Numbered from the stretch's first letter, positions 3-18,512 are shown. The stretch: 64,000 nucleotides of DNA from Candidatus Magasanikbacteria bacterium GW2011_GWC2_37_14 (GCA_000990355.1 LBSX01000002.1:6000-69999), one strand, 5' to 3'. Made by a program: numbers and translations. The notes: generated by a model from the letters alone, not told the origin.

Positions 3-572
3 TTGTTAAAAAAAGAATTCGATATTCATCGAGCCAAAAATCAACAACATCCTTTGCAAGAAAAATATGGCATAGATGCTGTACCAGCACAACACGAAAA
101 ATTAAATGAATGGCGCGAGAATTTTGTAGGTATTCAGTATGAACATCCGGAATTAGGAATCACTATTACTGGGGCAATTGATGATTTATGGGTAAATTCA
201 GCTGGTGAATATATTGTGGTAGATTATAAATCTACTTCCAAGGCCGAAAAAATTGAAGCCTTGGATCAAGAGTGGCAAAATGGTTACAAAAGACAAATGG
301 AAGTTTACCAATGGCTTTTGCGAAAAAATGGTTACCAGGTTTCTAATACTGGATATTTTGTGTATTGTAATGGCGATACCGACAAAGAAGCTTTTGATGG
401 TAAATTAGAATTTGAAATTACTTTAATTGTTCACGAAGGTAATGATAGTTGGGTAGAACAAAGAATTAAAGAAGCTCATGAATGTTTAAAAATTGATAGT
501 TTGCCTAACCCGGGCAAAGCTTGTGATTATTGCGCTTATCGCCAGGGAGTGAAAGAAGTTTTGAGTGTTTAA
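3..572 (+). CDS. C-terminal fragment of a PD-(D/E)XK nuclease (RecB/Cas4-like), 5'-partial
   Basis: Motif IDDLWV...EYIVVDYKSTSK resembles the D...(D/E)XK core. C-terminal cysteines (CDYCAY) resemble the Fe-S/Zn cluster of Cas4/AddB nucleases. The ORF runs off the window start. Confidence 0.5.
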   Translation: MLKKEFDIHRAKNQQHPLQEKYGIDAVPAQHEKLNEWRENFVGIQYEHPELGITITGAIDDLWVNSAGEYIVVDYKSTSKAEKIEALDQEWQNGYKRQMEVYQWLLRKNGYQVSNTGYFVYCNGDTDKEAFDGKLEFEITLIVHEGNDSWVEQRIKEAHECLKIDSLPNPGKACDYCAYRQGVKEVLSV

Positions 573-1188: not shown

Positions 1189-1389
1189 ATGAAAGGTGCA
1201 ATTAAGACCATCGTTGCTGAAAAGCATTTTGGTTTCATCACCCCTGAGGATGGTTCTAAAGACGTTTTCTTCCATGAATCCGGTTTAGTAGACCTTCAAT
1301 TTGGTGACTTAAAAGCTGGTGATATGGTAAGTTTCGACGTTGAGCAGTCCGACAAAGGACCACGCGCTATCAACGTTGTTCGCGCTTAA
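1189..1389 (+). CDS. cspA: Cold-shock protein (CspA family, S1-like OB fold)
   Basis: 66 aa. Motifs KHFGFITPEDGSKDVFFH and RGPRAINV match RNP1/RNP2 of the Csp family. Confidence 0.9.
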   Translation: MKGAIKTIVAEKHFGFITPEDGSKDVFFHESGLVDLQFGDLKAGDMVSFDVEQSDKGPRAINVVRA

Positions 1390-1403
1390 TCATTCAGATT
1401 AAA

Positions 1404-1434
1404 AACACCCCGCATTTTGCGGGGTGTTTTTTTT
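1404..1434 (+). terminator. Rho-independent terminator after cspA
   Basis: Hairpin ACACCCCGC/GCGGGGTGT followed by a run of 8 T. Confidence 0.7.
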
Positions 1435-1442
1435 AATATTTT

Positions 1443-1497
1443 CCCTCCCCTATGAGGGGAGGGGTAGCCTGCCTGCCGGTAGGCAGGGGTGGGGTTT
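1443..1497. repeat. GC-rich palindromic element, composite of family B: CCCTCCCC/GGGGAGGG hairpin, GCCTGCC/GGCAGG hairpin, GGGGTGGGG tail
   Basis: Two perfect hairpins in an AT-rich intergenic gap. The same modules recur at 37913-37949, 38421-38447 and 61331-61340. Confidence 0.6.
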
Positions 1498-1499
1498 GT

Positions 1500-2129
1500 T
1501 TATTTCTTCTTTTTTGCAACAACTTTTTTTACAGCTGCTTTTGTTTTAGTTTTCTTTTCTTTTGTAGCTTCTTTTTCAACTACTTCTTTAACAACAGTTT
1601 CTTTGGTTTTTTTTGTTTCAGGTTTGCTTTCAGTAACAACTCCCAAAAACTTCATTAATTTATCAATTTTTACATGAAGTTGCTTGATTTGTTCTGTTAC
1701 GTCGCCATTATCTCTACTACCTCTGTTTTCGTCTTTTTTAAAGCAATTACTACAATATACAGGTTTATCAGTTGGTCGAAAAGGCACTTGGCAATTGTCG
1801 CCACATTTAGCGCAAGTAGCATCATGCATCTGGCGATCAGCACCAAAGTTTGGTCTTTCGCGACGGTCGCTGGCAAAATTACTTGGTCTACTGCCGCCAC
1901 CATTGTCTTGCTGTTTGCCAAAGCAATTACTGCAAAACACTGGACGTTCACCAGATGGTCTAAATGGTAATTCACAGTTGTCTCCACATTCACTGCAAAC
2001 AGCCTTAAAACGAGCTGGTTTATCTCCATCACGGTCAAATCTACCTCCACCGCCAAATGATTTACCGCCACCAAATTTACGGCCAAAACCACCACTAGAT
2101 TTTCGATCGTCTCTATTAAAATTTTTCAT
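1500..2129 (-). CDS. Putative nucleic-acid-binding protein: N-terminal RGG/Gly-Arg-rich region, two tandem CxxC-x-CxxC zinc ribbons (CxxCGDNCxxPFRP...PV(F/Y)CSNCF), C-terminal lysine-rich tail
   Basis: Two near-identical zinc-ribbon repeats. The GGFGRKFGGGKSFGGGGRF segment is RGG-like. The tail KKTKTKAAVKKVVAKKKK is histone H1-like. The gene is convergent with cspA. Confidence 0.6.
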   Translation of the reverse strand: MKNFNRDDRKSSGGFGRKFGGGKSFGGGGRFDRDGDKPARFKAVCSECGDNCELPFRPSGERPVFCSNCFGKQQDNGGGSRPSNFASDRRERPNFGADRQMHDATCAKCGDNCQVPFRPTDKPVYCSNCFKKDENRGSRDNGDVTEQIKQLHVKIDKLMKFLGVVTESKPETKKTKETVVKEVVEKEATKEKKTKTKAAVKKVVAKKKK

Positions 2130-2207
2130 ATTTCAATATTTTATATTAATTAAACAACAAGTGACCTAAGCTTACCACAGAATGGTATAAAAAACAAGGG
2201 GCGTGGT

Positions 2208-3991: not shown

Positions 3992-6583
3992 TTATATAGC
4001 AAATAAAAACCCATAACTCAAAGAAGTATAGGCCATATCTTGCCAAACAGTAAATTCATTCATATCCGGCATGCGGGCCCAAGGAGCATATTGTCGAAGG
4101 GCAGGAATATTTTTTGGGGTGGGATAAAAATTATTATACACCAAACAACCCCAAGCATCGGTAGGTTCACAATCGCCGTCATAATCTCGTGCATGGGGAC
4201 CATAAATAGGTAATCCAGGGACTGGTTTTTCTTGTTGGTCATACATAGAATTCAAATGTAGTGGAAATTCGGGATTTCTAATTCCTAATCCAGTTATCCA
4301 AGAAAGACCCAAAGGATTTTCTCCTAATTGATAATCAGCATTTAAAGAAATTGCGTCGATATATTTTTGATCTTTGGTAAAATAATATGCCATTGCAGTG
4401 CCAACAATACTTCTCATAGAGTTTGATCCCGAGCCCCAAGCAATTGCGTAATTAAAATTAGTAGAATTTTTATATTTATTTTCCATAATTTGTTCTACTT
4501 CGTCATTGCCAATTTCAATAATTCTATTTTTTACTTGTTCTTGAAAATCTCTGTCAACGTTGGTGCCATTGGCATTGCTATAACCCCAAAAAGAATAAAT
4601 ATTTGCAAACCAAGTAGGACCACGATAGGTTGGGTACAATTGTTTAAATACATTTTGATATTTTGTTTCATTGGTTAAAGCAAATAATTCTCCGGCGGCG
4701 TACATTTTTTCTCTTTCTAGTTCATTCAGTTTGTCTTCGTTACTTCTTTCTACAGGCGCTGTCGTGCCAAGGCTAGTTTGTTTTTCTGCCCAATCCCAAG
4801 CTTTCAAGGCTTTATTTTTTAAATCAGTGGCTTTGTTTTTTCCGGCGGGATAATTTTCCAAAATTCTCGCTAAATGTGCAGCTGCTCCGGCAAATTTATA
4901 AGAAGTCCATCTGTTTGGAGCATATGTCCAGTAGGGAAGTGTGTCACCCTCACATGTAGAAGAACCTGGGTGAGCATAACTCTCAACGCCAGCTCTTACT
5001 CCGCCGTCTGATTCTTGTAAAGTTTCCCATAATTTTATTCCCCATAAAGCTTCATCCAAAACATCTGGAATTTGGTTTCCACTTTCCGGAATATTTAATT
5101 GATTGTCTGTAAATTTATTAGGAAACATTTCTTGTAAGGTTGTTAAATCTTCGACAATTAGTAAATGCATTGGTCTTAAATCAAAATCACCAGCATCAAA
5201 CCAACCACCACTAATATTTATCGGGTTATTTTTGGAAGTATTTTTAGAAAATTTTTCACCAAAATCTTCCAATATATTTGTTTCAAATACTTGGTTCAGG
5301 CACATTTTATGAATCCAGTTGGTATATTTTGATTCTAGGGCTGTGCCAGCCCGTTGGTGGTACAAACCGCGAATTGCTGTATAAAAGGCTGTAAAAGCAG
5401 AATCTAGCCCTACGCTAAAGACAAGAGATCGACCAATTCCTTCTACCTCAAGATAATAATTACCTTCGTTTAAATCACTTAAATCTAATTCATATAAAAT
5501 TTCTCCACTTAGATTGTCCGATCCTAAGTTTGTTGATTTTCCCGAACTGACCAATTGTTTGGAACTGGCATTATACACTTGATAATTTAATTGTGTCGGC
5601 AATATTAAAGCACCGCCAGAACCTAACCAATAACCAACATAAGCATAGCGTTCTTTTGCTTTTAAAGAAAAACCATGTTGATTAATTTTAATAGCTTTGG
5701 CAATTTGCAAATCTTTGCCAGGCATTAAATTCCAAGAAGAAAATTGTTCATTGGAAAAATAACCAATTGTTCCGTTATAAACATATTTTTTACCTGTTGG
5801 GTTAATAAGTTCTACTGTATAATTTTGATCATTTTTTAATTCTTTAGGTAAAGTTAAATACAAAGTATGTCTTAAAACAACGTCGGCTTGGTTTTGGCCG
5901 TTATAATCTCTGTCTTCAGCATCTAATACTGCCGAAAATCGATCAATTTTTGTAGGATGAACAATATTTTTGTAATTTATATCACTAGTAGAAATAATAT
6001 TCCAATTGTTTGCATTCATTATAAAATTTAAATCAATTTCACCATCAAAAATTACTTCCGCTATTTTATTAGTAATTAGTCCAATTGAATTATTTTTTAT
6101 TACGACTTCAGAAGTAGTAAATTCACTGTCTGGATATATTTCCGAGTTGTTTATGGTTAATATTCTGTCCCAGCGATAGCCCAAATTATTAAAAGCAGTT
6201 TCATTAGCAATGTGTTTTTTTAATAAAATTCCTTTTTCACTGTATTCTAAGCGATAAACTTTATTACTATTAGCATATTTTATAATTGTAAATTCTGGGT
6301 GATGGTCAGTGTAATTTATTTCACCGGCAGTTTCGTATTTATTTAATAATTCGACATCAATATTTTCAATCCAATTCCAAGGGTATTTTAAAGAGTTAAA
6401 AATATTTTCAGATTTTATCCAATATTTTTTATTGTTCAATAATATATACACCTTTGGGTCGTTGGGAATTTTTACCAAAGCGCCATGCAGGGTGTTATTA
6501 ATAGAAAATGCTTTTGGCACAAACAATACAAAGGCAAAAACTAAGTTTAAAACAATTAAACTAAATATTTTTCTTTTATTCAT
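3992..6583 (-). CDS. Secreted glycoside hydrolase, GH9-like (alpha/alpha)6 catalytic domain, with N-terminal signal peptide and Ig-like/beta-sandwich region
   Basis: Signal peptide MNKRKIFSLIVLNLVFAFVLFVPKAFS. The GGWFDAGDFDLRP motif matches the GH9 signature GGWYDAGD. C-terminal YQLGENPLGLSWITGLG matches the GH9 C-terminal region. Confidence 0.6.
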   Translation of the reverse strand: MNKRKIFSLIVLNLVFAFVLFVPKAFSINNTLHGALVKIPNDPKVYILLNNKKYWIKSENIFNSLKYPWNWIENIDVELLNKYETAGEINYTDHHPEFTIIKYANSNKVYRLEYSEKGILLKKHIANETAFNNLGYRWDRILTINNSEIYPDSEFTTSEVVIKNNSIGLITNKIAEVIFDGEIDLNFIMNANNWNIISTSDINYKNIVHPTKIDRFSAVLDAEDRDYNGQNQADVVLRHTLYLTLPKELKNDQNYTVELINPTGKKYVYNGTIGYFSNEQFSSWNLMPGKDLQIAKAIKINQHGFSLKAKERYAYVGYWLGSGGALILPTQLNYQVYNASSKQLVSSGKSTNLGSDNLSGEILYELDLSDLNEGNYYLEVEGIGRSLVFSVGLDSAFTAFYTAIRGLYHQRAGTALESKYTNWIHKMCLNQVFETNILEDFGEKFSKNTSKNNPINISGGWFDAGDFDLRPMHLLIVEDLTTLQEMFPNKFTDNQLNIPESGNQIPDVLDEALWGIKLWETLQESDGGVRAGVESYAHPGSSTCEGDTLPYWTYAPNRWTSYKFAGAAAHLARILENYPAGKNKATDLKNKALKAWDWAEKQTSLGTTAPVERSNEDKLNELEREKMYAAGELFALTNETKYQNVFKQLYPTYRGPTWFANIYSFWGYSNANGTNVDRDFQEQVKNRIIEIGNDEVEQIMENKYKNSTNFNYAIAWGSGSNSMRSIVGTAMAYYFTKDQKYIDAISLNADYQLGENPLGLSWITGLGIRNPEFPLHLNSMYDQQEKPVPGLPIYGPHARDYDGDCEPTDAWGCLVYNNFYPTPKNIPALRQYAPWARMPDMNEFTVWQDMAYTSLSYGFLFAI

Positions 6584-6631
6584 ATCTTTTATTTTACTCT
6601 AATAAGTGAGTAAAAACAATTTATTTATAAG

Positions 6632-6672
6632 ATATAAAAAAATAATGGCCCAATAAAGCCATTATTTCATTT
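6632..6672 (-). terminator. Hairpin terminator (AATAATGGC/GCCATTATT) with a downstream T-run on the minus strand
   Basis: 9-bp perfect stem flanked by an A-run on + (a T-run on -). Confidence 0.4.
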
Positions 6673-6693
6673 ATTTTACAATTTTTGTAAAAT

Positions 6694-6806
6694 TATGCTT
6701 GAGGTTCAACTGGAGTTTCTTCTGGGGTAGGTTCTACTGGAGTTGCTGTTTCCTCGACTGGAGTAGTGGCTGTAGTTTCGTCTGTAGTAGGTTCGTCTTG
6801 CATCAT
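6694..6806 (-). CDS. Possible 37-aa acidic Thr/Pro/Glu-rich small protein
   Basis: ORF MMQDEPTTDETTATTPVEETATPVEPTPEETPVEPQA is followed by the hairpin terminator. It is low complexity and could be spurious. Confidence 0.2.
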
Positions 6807-6945
6807 ATGTGTGATACTTATGTATAAAGGCCAACTAGTGTTAGTCAGTGGAATCAATTATATCACGTTTTGATTATCTTGTCAATGATAAATTTTACCT
6901 TACACTACTTGGCTCGGGGTCACGAACGACGTTCGAACCAGCTTG

Positions 6946-7404
6946 TTAGAATTTTAAAAGACTGGCAATACACAAAACTACCCCAGCACCAAAAAGACAA
7001 CCAGCCATTTTACCAACCGCGGATTTAAGCATTGTCCTTTCTTCAGACACAAATTGAAGTCTTAATTTTTCGGCAGAATAGCCCTCAAAGATCCCCGCTA
7101 TTCCGTCTGTTATGGCATTTCCGACAACACCGCCAAGGATAGCCCCTGTTACCCCACCAAAATGACCGCCAAAGATTGCCATTATCGCTAGAATACCATT
7201 ATCTATCAATCCGAAGTATATATCCGGCAAAACGGATTTTATATTTATTTTAAAAGGTAAAAGAGAGAGAAGACAAAGTATGGACAATAAAATCAACACA
7301 AGACCTATCCAGTGACCGTCGTTAACAAGATATATGCTAACCGCACCGATTATAATACAAAGTGCAAGTATGTTAACGATAGCTAAAAAGAACTTCTTAT
7401 TCAT
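6946..7404 (-). CDS. Small membrane protein with glycine-zipper region
   Basis: TM helices plus GGHFGGVTGAILGGVVGNAITDGIAGIFEG. Separated by 2 nt from the upstream GT4 gene (operon). Confidence 0.5.
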   Translation of the reverse strand: MNKKFFLAIVNILALCIIIGAVSIYLVNDGHWIGLVLILLSILCLLSLLPFKINIKSVLPDIYFGLIDNGILAIMAIFGGHFGGVTGAILGGVVGNAITDGIAGIFEGYSAEKLRLQFVSEERTMLKSAVGKMAGCLFGAGVVLCIASLLKF

Positions 7405-7406
7405 AT

Positions 7407-8585
7407 TTATTTATTAATGTTTAATCTTTTTTTGTACTTGTTTGGCTTATTAGCAACAATCTCCTTGTATATCGTCATCAATTTTGTTGTCATGTTTTTT
7501 GAACTAAATTGTTTTGAGCTTGCAAGCGCTCCTGCGGACAGTTTTTTCCGCAGAACATCATCACTTAAAATAAGCTGAATTTTTTCAACCATTTCTTTTT
7601 CAGAATTAACCAAATACCCATTAACGCCATCCTTAATGATTTCCGGAGCTACTCCGACAGGGAACGTTACGGGAATAATTCCTTGTGACATGCCTTCAAC
7701 CATACTCAAACAAAACCCTTCATAACGGGAAGTAACCAATAATATACTACCACAGAGGGCACTCAATTTTTCTTTAATTTCTGGTTTATACAGGTTTGTA
7801 TAAACAGTGTGAAGATTTATAGACGATCTTAACCAAGAACTAATGTTTTTATTAGCCGTCATTAGAATGCTAAGTTTGGGCACATCTCTAAACGCTCGAT
7901 AAGCATAAATAAGACGATCTAGCCCTTTTAATTTGAGGGTAAACACATTTTGGCCGATACGTCCCAAATAAACAAGAAAAGGGGCTGTTGTGGTCGTTGT
8001 TGGACTGTTTTCAAACCAAAAATCTTCTATCGCATTATGGACTACATGAATTTTTGTTTCATCAATTCCGCTGTTTATCAAATCGTTCTTTACTATCTCC
8101 GAGGTTGCCACAATAGCCGTGACTCGTTTAGCGACTAAATTTTCGATATCCGCTATATCTCTTAGTGGTCTTCTGGTTTTTATATTAAGTTCATTAATAA
8201 TTTTGGCTTGTTTTAATTCGTTCCAAATTTTTCTTAATTTTGGTTCAGTTTGGTTTGTGTGAGGTGTTGCGTGGATAAAACCACTCGTTGTTGAACCAAA
8301 ATGAGAAACGATAGGGGTTGAAAAAGATAAGAATGCAATCGTTGTGTATGTAGTTCCTTGGATAATATCACAGCTCAAAACTTTATTTCTATGTTCTAAC
8401 AAACTAAAAAAGAATAATATATTGTTGAAACCTTTCATGTGGTGTGGAGCGTCTACCAATTTTACTTTAGGATAAAAATGTATCATTTCGACGCCCTCTC
8501 CTTCTAATTTGCAAGAAATCAGGCTGTTTATACAACCTGCCCCAGTTTTTAATTTTTTATCTTGGTGAATAAAGGCGATTTTCAT
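7407..8585 (-). CDS. Glycosyltransferase family 4
   Basis: C-terminal EGFCLSMVEGMSQGIIPVTFPVGVAPEIIKDGVNGYLV is the GT1/GT4 nucleotide-sugar-binding motif. Confidence 0.75.
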   Translation of the reverse strand: MKIAFIHQDKKLKTGAGCINSLISCKLEGEGVEMIHFYPKVKLVDAPHHMKGFNNILFFFSLLEHRNKVLSCDIIQGTTYTTIAFLSFSTPIVSHFGSTTSGFIHATPHTNQTEPKLRKIWNELKQAKIINELNIKTRRPLRDIADIENLVAKRVTAIVATSEIVKNDLINSGIDETKIHVVHNAIEDFWFENSPTTTTTAPFLVYLGRIGQNVFTLKLKGLDRLIYAYRAFRDVPKLSILMTANKNISSWLRSSINLHTVYTNLYKPEIKEKLSALCGSILLVTSRYEGFCLSMVEGMSQGIIPVTFPVGVAPEIIKDGVNGYLVNSEKEMVEKIQLILSDDVLRKKLSAGALASSKQFSSKNMTTKLMTIYKEIVANKPNKYKKRLNINK

Positions 8586-9865: not shown

Positions 9866-9937
9866 CTCGGGAGGTGGGGATCGAACCCACGACCATCACG
9901 TTAACAGCGTGCCGCTCTACCGCTGAGCTACTCCCGA
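9866..9937 (-). tRNA. tRNA-Asn (anticodon GTT)
   Basis: Manually folded cloverleaf. Acceptor stem TCGGGAG/CTCCCGA. D-arm GCTC-AGCGGTA-GAGC. Anticodon loop CTGTTAA (U33, GTT, A37). T-arm GTGGG-TTCGATC-CCCAC. Discriminator G. U1-A72 as in E. coli tRNA-Asn. CCA is not encoded. Confidence 0.85.
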
Positions 9938-16697: not shown

Positions 16698-18512
16698 ATG
16701 CAGATTAGAAATATTGCCATTATTGCCCACGTAGACCACGGTAAAACCAAATTAACCGATGGTTTGTTGCGTTTTACTGGCATGGTTACGGACGAAAGTG
16801 TAAGTATGGATTCTAATGCTTTGGAGCAAGAACGTGGCATTACAATTTATTCCAAAAATACTTCTGTTTTTTATAAAGGAACAAAAATTAATATTGTGGA
16901 CACTCCTGGTCACGCTGATTTTGGCTCCGAAGTAGAACGTGTACTTCGTTCCATTGATTCAGTATTATTGGTTGTTGATGCACAAGAAGGTCCGATGCCT
17001 CAAACAAAATTTGTCTTAAAAAAATCATTAGATTTGGGTTTAAAGCCGATTGTGGTGATTAACAAAATAGATAAAGCCGCCGCTCGACCCGAATGGACTC
17101 ATGATAAGGTTTTGGAATTATTTATGGATTTGGGTGCCAATGATGCACAATTAAATTTTACTACTGTTTATGCCATTGCAAAAAATGGCATTGCCAAAAG
17201 AAATTTAGCCGATGAAAGTAATGATTTAGCACCTTTACTTGATACAATTTTAGAAGTTGTTGAACCAGCCAAGGTAGACACCACATTGCCATTTACTTTT
17301 CAACCTTTTAATTTGGCTTATGATAATTACTTGGGTCGTTTAGGTATTGGCCGTATTTATCAAGGCACTTTAAAAGCTAATGACCGAGTGTTTGATAAAA
17401 AAGTTGACGGTGAAATAATTTCTGGTAGTGTAAATAAAATTTTTACTTTTGAAGGCATGGCTCGCAAAGAGGTAAGTGAAGTGATTGCTGGCGACATTGT
17501 CATGGTTGCCGGTCTTCCCGAAATTTATATTGGTGATACTGTTTGTGCCAACAAAGATCAAGAAACTTTACCAGCGATTAGTGTAGATGAACCAACCATT
17601 TGTCTTAATTTTTTGGTAAATAATTCTCCTTTTGCCGGACGTGAAGGTAAATATGTAACCAGTCGCCAAATTAAAGAACGTTTGGAAAAAGAATTAGAGG
17701 TAAATGTAGGTTTAAAAATTGATTTTTCGGCTACTGACTACTATAAAGTTTATGGTCGTGGTGAATTGCATATTGCAATTTTATTAGAAAATATGCGCCG
17801 CGAAGGTTTTGAAGTACAAGTTTCGCAACCACAGGTAATTATTAAGGAAATTCCTTCGGCAAGCTCAGGACAAGTAATTAAATGTGAACCTTTTGAAGAA
17901 ATTACCGTAGATATTCCCGATAATTGTGTGGGTGGAGTAATTGAAAAATTATCCAAACGTAAAGCGGTAATGACAGAAATGCGTCCTGAAGGTAATCATA
18001 CTCGTTTACTCTTTATTATTCCTACTCGCGGACTCTTGGGTTATCGCAATGAATTTATTGTGGATACTCGTGGTGAAGGAATTTTATGTAGTGAAATGAT
18101 TGGATTTCAACCCTATGTTGGTGAAATAGAAAAACGCGATGTAGGTTCCATGATTTCTGGTGAAACTGGTAAAGTGTTGGCTTATTCATTGGCCAATTTA
18201 CAAGATCGCGGTGTATTGTATGTAGCACCAAATGTAGATGTTTATACTGGACAAGTAATTGGCAATACTGCCAAGGGTCAAGATATGACCGTTAACCCTA
18301 TTAAAGGTAAGCATCTCACCAATATGCGTTCTTCCAATTCAGATATGGCAGTGCAATTAACTCCGCCAATGGATTTATCACTAGAAAGAGCCATGGAAGT
18401 AATGGCTGAAGATGAATTTTTGGAAATTACTCCCAAAAGTATTCGCTTGCGTAAACAATTTTTAACCGAAAATGATCGGATTCGGCAAGAAAGAAAAGAA
18501 GCTAAAGAATAA
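16698..18512 (+). CDS. typA: Translational GTPase TypA/BipA
   Basis: G1 [11 protein letters not shown]3 DTPGH, NKID. 604 aa, EF-G-like architecture. Confidence 0.9.

What the first reader, a model, noticed from the sequence alone, without database searches (positions are those of the whole stretch)
1500..2129. Tandem zinc-ribbon protein with RGG box and H1-like tail, convergent with cspA
The 209-aa protein combines three features:
- A Gly/Arg-rich RGG-like N-terminus.
- Two near-identical CxxCGDNCxxPFRP-x-PV(F/Y)CSNCF zinc ribbons.
- A C-terminal Lys/Ala/Val-rich tail resembling histone H1 and nucleoid proteins.

This architecture suggests an RNA- or DNA-binding chaperone or nucleoid-associated protein. 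It is encoded tail-to-tail with the cold-shock protein gene.
Basis: partly seen in the sequence, partly recalled or inferred. Interest (0 to 1): 0.5.

Follow-up and report, generated by a model that had tools for sequence, protein, structure and literature searches.

The report
CPR tandem zinc-finger, likely RNA-binding protein
This is a real, strongly conserved gene for a small, mostly disordered, very basic protein with two zinc-binding modules; it belongs to an already catalogued domain family of unknown function that is common in ultra-small bacteria and archaea, and its gene neighbours point to a role with RNA and the ribosome, not to a histone-like DNA packager.

Summary
The 209-aa ORF at 1500..2129 (-) is real. 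It is identical to a deposited hypothetical protein of a Candidatus Magasanikbacteria (Patescibacteria/CPR) genome. It evolves under purifying selection (dN/dS 0.10-0.16). It carries two copies of a catalogued domain: Pfam PF23477 zf_Tbcl_2 and NCBIfam TIGR04272 'CxxC-x17-CxxC', both E about 1e-29.

The whole layout is conserved in hundreds of relatives:
- an MGNF start;
- a Gly/Arg/Phe-rich disordered N-terminus;
- two Cys4 modules;
- an amphipathic helix (EQIKxLNxKxDKLxKxL);
- a charged tail.

AlphaFold2 predicts each module as a beta-hairpin knuckle plus a helix. That is treble-clef-like, not a classical zinc ribbon. The Lys-rich tail is typical of the bacterial members, but it is acidic in DPANN archaeal homologues, so the H1-like reading is weak.

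The convergent csp neighbour recurs in relatives. More broadly, the commonest neighbours are ABC-F ATPases, BipA, DEAD-box helicases, Csp and GreA. Their density falls from 0.17 per kb next to the gene to zero beyond 4 kb.

Best reading, inferred and untested: a zinc-stabilised, non-specific RNA-binding chaperone or ribosome-associated factor. It is a new member of a known family whose function is unknown. Interest is moderate.

The parts
1500..2129 (-). CDS of the 209-aa tandem Cys4 protein (stop codon 1500-1502). Identical to US42_C0002G0010, Candidatus Magasanikbacteria.
   Evidence: (P0001, 100% identity and coverage); dN/dS 0.10-0.16
2013..2129 (-). Residues 1-39: MKNF start, then a Gly/Phe/Arg/Lys-rich segment predicted to be disordered (net +5).
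   Evidence: (pLDDT about 50)
1905..2012 (-). Residues 40-75: Cys4 module 1 (C45, C48, C66, C69; C-x2-C-x17-C-x2-C). Beta-hairpin plus helix.
   Evidence: (pLDDT 85-91)
1830..1904 (-). Residues 76-100: disordered Arg/Gly/Asn/Ser linker (net +2).
1728..1829 (-). Residues 101-134: Cys4 module 2 (C106, C109, C126, C129). Spacing is x16 in this copy.
1632..1709 (-). Residues 141-166: conserved amphipathic helix with heptad-like hydrophobics I148, L151, I155, L158, L162. K154, D156 and L162 are invariant in the 26-sequence alignment; in the 120-sequence alignment K154 stays invariant and D156 and L162 are nearly invariant.
   Evidence: helix 141-166, pLDDT 71-85; helix motif in 311 of 347 members
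1503..1631 (-). Residues 167-209: disordered Lys/Glu/Val/Thr tail (K17, net +10), ending KKVVAKKKK.
1401..1431 (.). Perfect 14-bp hairpin flanked by an A-run and a T-run. Bidirectional intrinsic terminator shared with cspA; the closest relatives have the equivalent hairpin.
1443..1487 (.). Two extra GC-rich hairpins (1443-1463, 1468-1487) in the 3' UTR of the zinc-protein gene. They are absent from the closest relatives L090 and L091.
1189..1389 (+). Convergent cold-shock-domain gene (66 aa), with a TTGACA-17-TATACT promoter-like site at 1076-1104.
2130..2207 (-). 78-nt upstream intergenic region. It has no clear Shine-Dalgarno sequence and lacks the 18-mer found upstream of several relatives. 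The promoter is not established.

Best explanation
The gene encodes a stand-alone, zinc-stabilised, mostly disordered, strongly basic nucleic-acid-binding protein. It most likely works on RNA, as a non-specific RNA chaperone or a ribosome- or translation-associated accessory factor of Patescibacteria.

**Proposed mechanism.**
- Each Cys4 module binds one Zn2+ and folds into a small knuckle-plus-helix unit. This unit displays conserved aromatic and basic residues (PF[RK]P, [RK]PV[FY]C, CF).
- The Gly/Arg/Phe N-terminus, the Arg-rich linker and the Lys-rich tail add multivalent electrostatic and stacking contacts.
- The conserved amphipathic helix mediates self-association or docking to a partner.
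- The protein acts alongside Csp, DEAD-box helicase, BipA and ABC-F in RNA folding, ribosome assembly or translation, possibly at low temperature.

**Shown here:** the gene is real; it belongs to the family; the architecture is conserved; the fold topology is predicted; the gene neighbourhood is enriched.

**Shown elsewhere, for the domain only:** zinc binding.

**Inferred:** RNA as the ligand, chaperone activity, the role of the helix, and the link to cold.
For: **Family and selection.**
- PF23477 and TIGR04272, two copies each, well above the curated cut-offs.
- dN/dS 0.10-0.16.
- 4548 clusters in the representative search. The 150 best are all stand-alone proteins of 137-339 aa, and the family rows that carry precomputed Pfam annotation show no enzymatic domain.

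**Zinc.** Two M. mazei proteins with this domain were shown to bind zinc by ICP-MS (PMC12704099).

**Structure.** AF2 gives two confident small modules (pLDDT about 90) and one helix; everything else is disordered. Net charge +19.

**Context.** Unbiased clustering of neighbours was done in 84 loci: 81 genome loci from different species, two further relatives, and this window.
- The five most recurrent families are ABC-F (14 loci; confirmed by NF000355), DEAD-box (8), BipA (7), Csp (7) and GreA (5).
- 29 of 84 loci have at least one of these.
- Their density is 0.17 per kb in the first kb, then 0.06, 0.03, 0.016, 0 and 0.
- Beta-CASP RNase (3 loci) and HflX (2 loci) also recur.

**Specific arrangements.**
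- L044, a complete Falkowbacteria chromosome: csp > Zn gene > ABC-F on one strand, with gaps of 116 and 5 nt.
- Woesearchaeota L060: Zn gene > csp with a 24-nt gap.
- Close relatives: ABC-F > Zn gene < csp in L089; csp, ABC-F, Zn gene in L086.
Against: - No binding or chaperone activity has been measured for any member.
- Neighbourhood association is partial: 55 of 84 loci have none of these neighbours. Some of it may reflect inherited synteny within related CPR lineages and not function.
- In this window the csp gene is convergent, so it is not co-transcribed. The upstream neighbour is a GT4 glycosyltransferase, and no ABC-F or DEAD-box gene lies within 64 kb.
- Nothing distinguishes RNA from single- or double-stranded DNA at the sequence level.
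- The archaeal members have acidic tails, so a simple polycation model does not explain the whole family.
- No solved structure resembles the module significantly.
Confidence: 0.5

Rival explanations
1. Nucleoid-associated, histone-H1-like DNA-binding protein. The Lys-rich tail and the basic N-terminus coat and compact DNA, and the zinc modules add DNA contacts.
For: Net charge +19 and a tail with 17 Lys in 43 residues ending KKVVAKKKK. The tail is basic in 256 of 311 family members. Pif1-type helicases (4 loci) and GIY-YIG proteins (9 loci) also occur near the gene.
Against: - Pfam reported no linker-histone or other known DNA-binding domain at E<=10.
- The tail has little Ala and one Pro, unlike Ala/Pro/Lys-rich H1-type tails (the H1 composition is from general knowledge).
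- Tail charge flips to strongly acidic in DPANN and some bacterial members, while the N-terminus, zinc module and helix stay conserved.
- The dominant neighbours are translation and RNA genes.
Confidence: 0.15
2. Transcription factor that docks on RNA polymerase through its zinc modules, in the manner of small zinc-finger RNAP-binding factors, and acts together with GreA.
For: GreA is adjacent or near in 5 loci, including this window, L005, L009, L081 and L082. Csp proteins can act as antiterminators: the best NCBIfam hit of the neighbouring csp is CspE, though below cut-off. Some archaeal single-domain members are labelled 'DNA-directed RNA polymerase' by their sources.
Against: The 'RNA polymerase' label is unsupported. 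No RNAP-subunit family appears in the Pfam or NCBIfam scans even at E<=10. The RNAP subunit P chain (9bct_P) is only a non-significant Foldseek hit, E 3.7. ABC-F, BipA and DEAD-box neighbours outnumber GreA.
Confidence: 0.1
3. Not primarily a nucleic-acid binder. Instead it is a zinc- or redox-responsive module (a Cys4 switch or zinc buffer), or a protein-protein adaptor that uses the helix and the conserved MGNF N-terminus to bind a partner such as the adjacent ABC-F ATPase.
For: Ten Cys in 209 residues. The top, non-significant, structural hits are Zn(Cys)4 modules of Trx2 and PerR/Fur. The same ABC-F subfamily of about 483 aa sits directly beside the gene in many lineages, with gaps of 5-170 nt. 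The N-terminal MGNF and the helix are the most conserved non-Cys features.
Against: All structural matches are at chance level, E>1. The long Gly/Arg and Lys low-complexity segments are typical of nucleic-acid binders and are not needed for a zinc switch. No fusion to, or strict co-occurrence with, ABC-F was shown.
Confidence: 0.15

Closest known systems
Pfam PF23477 (zf_Tbcl_2, 'probable treble clef zinc finger') / NCBIfam TIGR04272 (cxxc_cxxc_Mbark, 'CxxC-x17-CxxC domain-containing protein')
   Same: Both modules match over nearly the full model length (positions 1-36 of 37). Whole-protein scores are 102 bits against cut-offs of 27 and 36. Database relatives are already named this way.
   Different: These are domain models with no assigned function. 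They do not describe the conserved full-length CPR layout (MGNF start, Gly/Arg N-terminus, two modules, helix, charged tail). Module 2 of this copy has x16 spacing instead of x17.
[quoted passage not shown]
   Same: The same named domain. Zinc binding was shown by ICP-MS on purified protein, which supports Zn(Cys)4 sites here.
   Different: They are archaeal single-domain proteins, under 100 aa by that study's definition of small proteins; the single-domain archaeal members found here are 44-76 aa. They lack the Gly/Arg N-terminus, second module, helix and tail. Their function is also unknown; the authors only speculate about transcription.
Eukaryotic Gly-rich zinc-knuckle RNA chaperones: plant cold-shock-domain proteins (CSD plus Gly-rich regions interspersed with CCHC knuckles; PMC1802614, PMC3355641) and CNBP (CCHC knuckles plus an RGG box; general knowledge)
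   Same: The same design logic: small zinc modules alternate with Gly/Arg-rich disordered segments, and there is a link to a cold-shock domain. Here the cold-shock domain is a neighbouring gene in several genomes.
   Different: No homology. Here the modules are about 36-residue Cys4 units with a helix, not 14-residue CCHC knuckles. The CSD is a separate gene. The activity is untested. This is an analogy for how the protein may work, not a membership claim.
Histone H1 and bacterial H1-like Lys-rich proteins
   Same: A Lys-rich, disordered, strongly basic C-terminal tail.
   Different: No globular linker-histone domain among the reported Pfam hits. Low Ala and Pro content. Tail charge is not conserved across the family.
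Classical zinc ribbons (for example TFIIB-type or RNAP subunit P)
   Same: Four Cys arranged as two CxxC pairs about 17 residues apart. A small beta-hairpin carries the first pair.
   Different: In the AF2 models the second CxxC opens an alpha-helix instead of sitting on a second beta-hairpin. There is no sequence or significant structural match to ribbon families.

Membership tests
PF23477 zf_Tbcl_2 / TIGR04272 CxxC-x17-CxxC domain | Score above the curated whole-protein cut-off of the family model | tested here: met
   Pfam: 102.2 bits against 27, E 1.1e-29, 2 stretches. NCBIfam: 102.7 bits against 36, E 6.1e-30, 2 stretches.
PF23477 zf_Tbcl_2 / TIGR04272 CxxC-x17-CxxC domain | Four conserved Cys as CxxC-x17-CxxC | tested here: met
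   Module 1 is C45-x2-C48-x17-C66-x2-C69. Module 2 is C106-x2-C109-x16-C126-x2-C129, one residue shorter. All eight Cys except C48 (nearly invariant) are invariant in the 120-sequence alignment.
PF23477 zf_Tbcl_2 / TIGR04272 CxxC-x17-CxxC domain | Binds zinc | not testable with these tools
   Shown by ICP-MS only for two M. mazei members (PMC12704099). Needs metal analysis of this protein.
Treble-clef zinc finger (fold group) | First ligand pair on a beta-hairpin knuckle, second pair at the N-terminus of an alpha-helix | tested here: inconclusive
Classical zinc ribbon | Both CxxC pairs on beta-hairpin knuckles of a three-stranded sheet | tested here: not met
   The second CxxC (C66/C69 and C126/C129) starts a helix in both AF2 models.
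RGG box | Clustered Arg-Gly-Gly repeats | tested here: not met
   There are zero RGG tripeptides in this protein, only GR x2, GGG x4 and FG x5. The region is Gly/Arg/Lys/Phe-rich, and many homologues do carry RGG-type repeats, so the resemblance is functional and not literal.
Histone H1 / H1-like nucleoid protein | Linker-histone globular domain, or a conserved Ala/Pro/Lys-rich basic tail | tested here: not met
   No such Pfam family was reported at E<=10. The tail is K17, E7, V7, T6, A4 with one Pro. Tail charge varies from +10 to -32 across the family.
Cold-shock regulon member | Induced by temperature downshift, or co-transcribed with csp | not testable with these tools
   Only synteny is available. 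The pair is convergent here. It lies on the same strand in L044 and L060. Needs expression data.
Phage or defence-system protein | Match to PHROGs or PADLOC models | tested here: not met
   No family at E<=0.01 in either library.

The most novel reading that the evidence does not exclude
The full-length layout (MGNF start, Gly/Arg region, Cys4 module(s), amphipathic helix, charged tail) defines a functionally uncharacterised accessory factor of RNA metabolism and translation. It would be shared by the two groups of ultra-small, symbiotic prokaryotes, Patescibacteria and DPANN archaea. It would work with an adjacent ABC-F ATPase, BipA, DEAD-box helicases and Csp, for example as a zinc-dependent RNA chaperone in ribosome assembly or translation in the cold, and would compensate for the reduced gene sets of these organisms.
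Probability: 0.3. Interest if true: 0.6.

Novelty: new member of a known kind. Interest (0 to 1): 0.38.

Why it matters
Patescibacteria and DPANN archaea make up a large part of microbial diversity, yet most of their conserved small proteins have no known role. This family is very widespread: 4548 clusters at 50% identity, and more than 588 matching genome loci in the scan of species-representative genomes. It is under purifying selection. It sits repeatedly beside translation and RNA-remodelling genes. If it is an RNA chaperone or ribosome-associated factor, it would add a component to the minimal translation and RNA-folding machinery of these organisms. It would also give the catalogued CxxC-x17-CxxC domain its first function. 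For this window alone, the result is a better annotation: member of a known domain family, probably RNA-binding, and not histone-like.

Tried and rejected
1. **Sequence search of the PDB.** The whole protein and a 22-sequence domain profile gave nothing below E 0.09, only generic CxxC matches.
3. **Search for domain fusions as a functional clue.** The domain-profile search returned only 44-76-aa single-domain proteins, the named ones archaeal. The exhaustive representative search returned only stand-alone proteins of 137-339 aa in its top 150. The DEAD-box neighbours have DbpA/RGG-type C-termini and no Cys4 module. No fusion was found.
4. **'DNA-directed RNA polymerase' labels on archaeal members.** No RNAP-subunit family appears in the Pfam or NCBIfam scans, so I treat the label as a mis-annotation.
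5. **Phage or defence origin.** No PHROGs or PADLOC match.
6. **Structured RNA in the region.** Rfam at gathering threshold finds only a tRNA at 9866-9937 in the whole window.
7. **Artefact of the opposite strand.** Rejected on dN/dS, Pfam and the depth of conservation. The + strand ORF 1684..2169 is the shadow.
8. **Second copy in the window.** None was found in a six-frame motif scan.
9. **Literature.** Only one relevant paper mentions the domain. Nothing was found for PF23477, TIGR04272 or zf_Tbcl_2. Searches on the Patescibacteria ribosome and on CPR cold shock were unproductive.

Full report
**1. What is there**

The minus strand of window 1500..2129 carries an ATG-initiated ORF of 209 codons. 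Its product is 100% identical over its full length to a deposited hypothetical protein, US42_C0002G0010, of a Candidatus Magasanikbacteria genome bin (Patescibacteria, also called CPR). The window has 32.7% G+C and the gene 38%.

The protein divides into these segments:

| Residues | Feature |
|---|---|
| 1-39 | MKNF start, then a Gly/Phe/Arg/Lys/Asp-rich segment, net +5 |
| 40-75 | Cys4 module 1 (C45, C48, C66, C69) |
| 76-100 | Arg/Gly/Asn/Ser linker |
| 101-134 | Cys4 module 2 (C106, C109, C126, C129) |
| 141-166 | Helix |
| 167-209 | Lys/Glu/Val/Thr tail (17 Lys, net +10) |

The whole protein has net charge +19 and pI 9.6.

- There is no literal RGG tripeptide.
- The two modules share the core motif but only 19 identical positions across the domain.
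- Module 2 has x16 spacing, not x17. This one-residue deletion is absent from the closest relatives.

**2. It is a real gene**

- Pfam PF23477 (zf_Tbcl_2, 'probable treble clef zinc finger') matches twice: E 1.1e-29, 102 bits against a cut-off of 27.
- NCBIfam TIGR04272 ('CxxC-x17-CxxC domain-containing protein') also matches twice: E 6.1e-30, 103 bits against 36.
- A word-indexed search finds 1138 homologues.
- An exhaustive HMMER scan of 1.84 billion cluster representatives, using residues 36-166 as query, finds 4548 clusters at E<=1e-3 and 1145 at E<=1e-10.
- Against two relatives of 84% and 79% identity (L090, L091), Nei-Gojobori dN/dS is 0.10 and 0.16, with dS about 0.8.

The 161-aa ORF on the + strand (1684..2169) is the shadow of this gene.

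**3. The architecture is conserved, not just the domain**

- Of the 120 best hits, 116 have exactly two Cys4 modules. The 40 best rows printed all show a Gly/Arg-rich N-terminus of about 25-60 residues, a linker of about 27-43 residues and a tail of about 72-115 residues with 22-34% Lys.
- In the 26- and 120-sequence alignments, almost all of the module Cys are invariant (C48 only nearly so in the larger set). PF in each module and K154 are also invariant. M1 is invariant; F4, D156 and L162 are invariant or nearly so in one or both alignments.
- The consensus after module 2 is EQIKxLNxKxDKLxKxL. Hydrophobic residues fall at 148, 151, 155, 158 and 162, which is a heptad-like a/d pattern.
- A simple pattern for this helix is found after the last module in 311 of 347 family members. 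The N-terminus starts MGNF, MKNF or a close variant in most.
- A fifth Cys (CGxxC) is nearly invariant but is replaced by Phe in some members. It is more likely a core residue than a metal ligand.

**4. Predicted structure**

AlphaFold2 with a 120-sequence alignment gives two confident small modules (pLDDT 85-92). Each has a beta-hairpin with the first CxxC at its turn, and a helix that begins at the second CxxC. There is also a long helix at 141-166 (pLDDT 71-85). All other residues are below pLDDT 60. A domain-only model shows the same topology.

**5. What is known about the domain**

[quoted passage not shown] Two of them, A00184 and A01980, bind zinc by ICP-MS. Their function is unknown, and the authors only suggest transcription as a starting hypothesis (PMC12704099).

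A domain-profile search shows many single-domain proteins of 44-76 aa. Those that carry a source name are nearly all archaeal, and some are labelled 'DNA-directed RNA polymerase' by their sources. Neither the Pfam nor the NCBIfam scan supports that label.

**6. Distribution and variants**

They come from many Patescibacteria lineages, from DPANN archaea and from Nitrosopumilus.

- **DPANN homologues** (L058, L060, L068, L073, L074) keep the MGNFR start, a true RGG-rich N-terminus, one module and the same helix. They end in a strongly acidic Asp/Glu tail.
- **Tail charge across the family:** among 311 members with the helix, the tail is basic (at least +5) in 256, near neutral in 44 and acidic (-5 or lower) in 11. 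The conserved core is therefore N-terminus, module(s) and helix. The Lys-rich tail is a lineage-typical addition. This weakens the histone-H1 analogy.
- **Nitrosopumilus versions** have two or three modules separated by RDDRYS-type repeats, plus a different Cys-containing C-terminal domain.

**7. Genomic context**

In the window, the 3' end faces cspA (1189..1389 +) across 110 nt.
- That spacer contains a perfect 14-bp hairpin (1401-1431) flanked by A- and T-runs. It is a bidirectional terminator.
- It also contains two further GC-rich hairpins (1443-1463, 1468-1487).
- greA lies upstream of cspA, and a GT4 glycosyltransferase lies upstream of the zinc-protein gene.

The closest relatives keep the order Zn gene > < csp < greA, but have only the single terminator hairpin.

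To test whether the context means anything, I called ORFs in 84 non-redundant loci: 81 of the 82 fetched loci in which the gene was detected, two further relatives, and this window. I then clustered all neighbours without prior labels. Apart from shadow ORFs, the most recurrent neighbour families were:

| Neighbour family | Loci | Basis |
|---|---|---|
| ABC-F ATPases | 14 | confirmed by NF000355, |
| GIY-YIG proteins | 9 | |
| DEAD-box helicases | 8 | |
| BipA | 7 | |
| Csp | 7 | |
| GreA | 5 | |
| Pif1-type helicases | 4 | |
| Beta-CASP RNase | 3 | |
| HflX | 2 | |

- 29 of 84 loci have at least one of ABC-F, BipA, DEAD-box, Csp or GreA.
- As an internal control, the density of these five families falls with distance from the gene: 0.17, 0.06, 0.03, 0.016, 0 and 0 per kb in successive 1-kb bins. 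The two outermost bins are somewhat biased against long genes, because ORFs that run off a locus end are not called. Bins 2-4 are not affected.
- In a complete Falkowbacteria chromosome (L044), csp, the Zn gene and ABC-F lie on one strand with gaps of 116 and 5 nt.
- In a Woesearchaeota contig (L060), csp follows the Zn gene after 24 nt.
- Closer relatives show ABC-F > Zn gene < csp (L089), csp-ABC-F-Zn gene (L086), Zn gene < ABC-F (L087, L003) and csp-Pif1-Zn gene-csp (L001).
- In the present window, BipA lies 14.5 kb away, and there is no ABC-F or DEAD-box gene.

**8. Interpretation**

- **Shown:** a real, selected gene; membership of PF23477/TIGR04272; a conserved multi-part architecture; a predicted knuckle-plus-helix module; disorder and strong positive charge; enrichment of translation, RNA and transcription genes right next to it.
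- **Established elsewhere:** the domain binds zinc (PMC12704099).
- **From general knowledge of the neighbour families:** CspA-type proteins are RNA chaperones and antiterminators. DEAD-box helicases and BipA support ribosome assembly, notably in the cold. ABC-F proteins act on the ribosome. HflX splits ribosomes. GreA rescues stalled RNA polymerase.
- **Inferred:** the protein binds RNA non-specifically through its zinc modules and its disordered basic and aromatic segments. It would act as a chaperone or ribosome-associated accessory factor, with the helix serving for self-association or docking.

The design resembles eukaryotic Gly-rich zinc-knuckle RNA chaperones such as plant cold-shock-domain proteins (PMC1802614, PMC3355641). 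There is no homology, so this is an analogy only.

I put about 0.5 on this reading. The rivals are:
- a nucleoid or H1-like DNA binder, 0.15;
- an RNA-polymerase-binding factor, 0.10;
- a zinc/redox module or protein adaptor, for example for the adjacent ABC-F, 0.15.

**9. Novelty and score**

The protein and its domain family are already in public databases and are named by NCBI's pipeline. No function is known, and no paper found here discusses the CPR full-length form.

I file it as a new member of a known kind. The 'zinc ribbon', 'RGG box' and 'H1-like' labels do not pass their tests.

Interest is moderate (0.38). The family is a widespread, uncharacterised candidate translation or RNA factor of ultra-small prokaryotes, worth a biochemical look. 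It is not surprising in kind.

Noticed in passing
L001 3951-3968; L003 3969-3986; L008 1063-1080; L086 3948-3965; L089 3967-3984: An 18-mer, AATTACAnTTTAAGTAAT, with inverted-repeat ends ATTAC/GTAAT, lies 15-50 nt upstream of the ATG of the zinc-protein gene in five distinct relatives. Where the upstream sequence was read (L001, L003, L086, L089) it follows a -35-like TTGAC/TTGAT box and an extended -10-like box (TGTGCTAAAAT and variants). No other hit with one mismatch or fewer occurs in 934 kb searched on both strands. The window copy lacks it. It could be an operator or a 5'-UTR element.
   Followed up: partly
window 1443-1487: Two GC-rich hairpins (CCCTCCCCT/AGGGGAGGG and CCTGCCTGCC/GGTAGGCAGG) sit between the stop codon and the shared terminator. 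They are unique in the 64-kb window and absent from the closest relatives L090 and L091, so they look like a small lineage-specific insertion of unknown role.
   Followed up: partly
L058, L060, L068, L073, L074 (match near 5870-6320, or as listed): DPANN archaeal homologues keep the MGNFR start, an RGG-rich N-terminus, one Cys4 module and the conserved helix, but end in a strongly acidic Asp/Glu tail (net -14 to -32) instead of a Lys-rich one.
   Followed up: partly
L051 5899-6804; L053 5875-7089; L059 5854-6876: Nitrosopumilus-type homologues (301-404 aa) have two or three modules separated by RDDRYS/RDNRGS repeats. They also carry an extra C-terminal region with further CxxC pairs (CSSCGF...FCLNCN) and have a conserved local gene order.
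   Followed up: no
L044 5688-8041 (Candidatus Falkowbacteria chromosome CP066698): csp (5688-5885), the zinc-protein gene (6001-6585) and an ABC-F gene (6590-8041) lie on one strand with gaps of 116 and 5 nt. This is a candidate operon.
   Followed up: partly
many loci, for example L003 4729-6180, L076 599-2050, L086 2404-3855, L089 2452-3906: The ABC-F neighbour is mostly one subfamily of about 483-490 aa with a very similar N-terminus (VVxRFxxVxFEY..KPxLDE). Its best NCBIfam model is 'ribosomal protection-like ABC-F', scoring below that model's cut-off. A second type (L010, L016; 493-505 aa) scores above the cut-off.
   Followed up: partly
window 1684-2169 (+): A 161-aa ORF on the opposite strand overlaps most of the gene. 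Equivalent antisense ORFs appeared as recurrent 'clusters' in more than 20 loci, simply because the sense gene is conserved. It is a shadow ORF, not a gene.
   Followed up: yes
window 3-572 (+): The partial ORF at the window start gives a weak Cas4-like (PD-(D/E)XK nuclease with C-terminal Cys) match, TIGR00372 at 35.8 bits, below the cut-off of 65. No CRISPR context was examined.
   Followed up: no
window 16698-18512 (+): A BipA/TypA GTPase gene, 73% identical to the BipA that neighbours the zinc-protein gene in L004, lies 14.5 kb from the gene.
   Followed up: no
window 2130-2140 and 1178-1188: Neither the zinc-protein gene (…aatattgaaatATG) nor cspA (…catttcatactATG) has a recognisable Shine-Dalgarno sequence. 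Relatives of the zinc-protein gene likewise have A/T-rich leaders.
   Followed up: no
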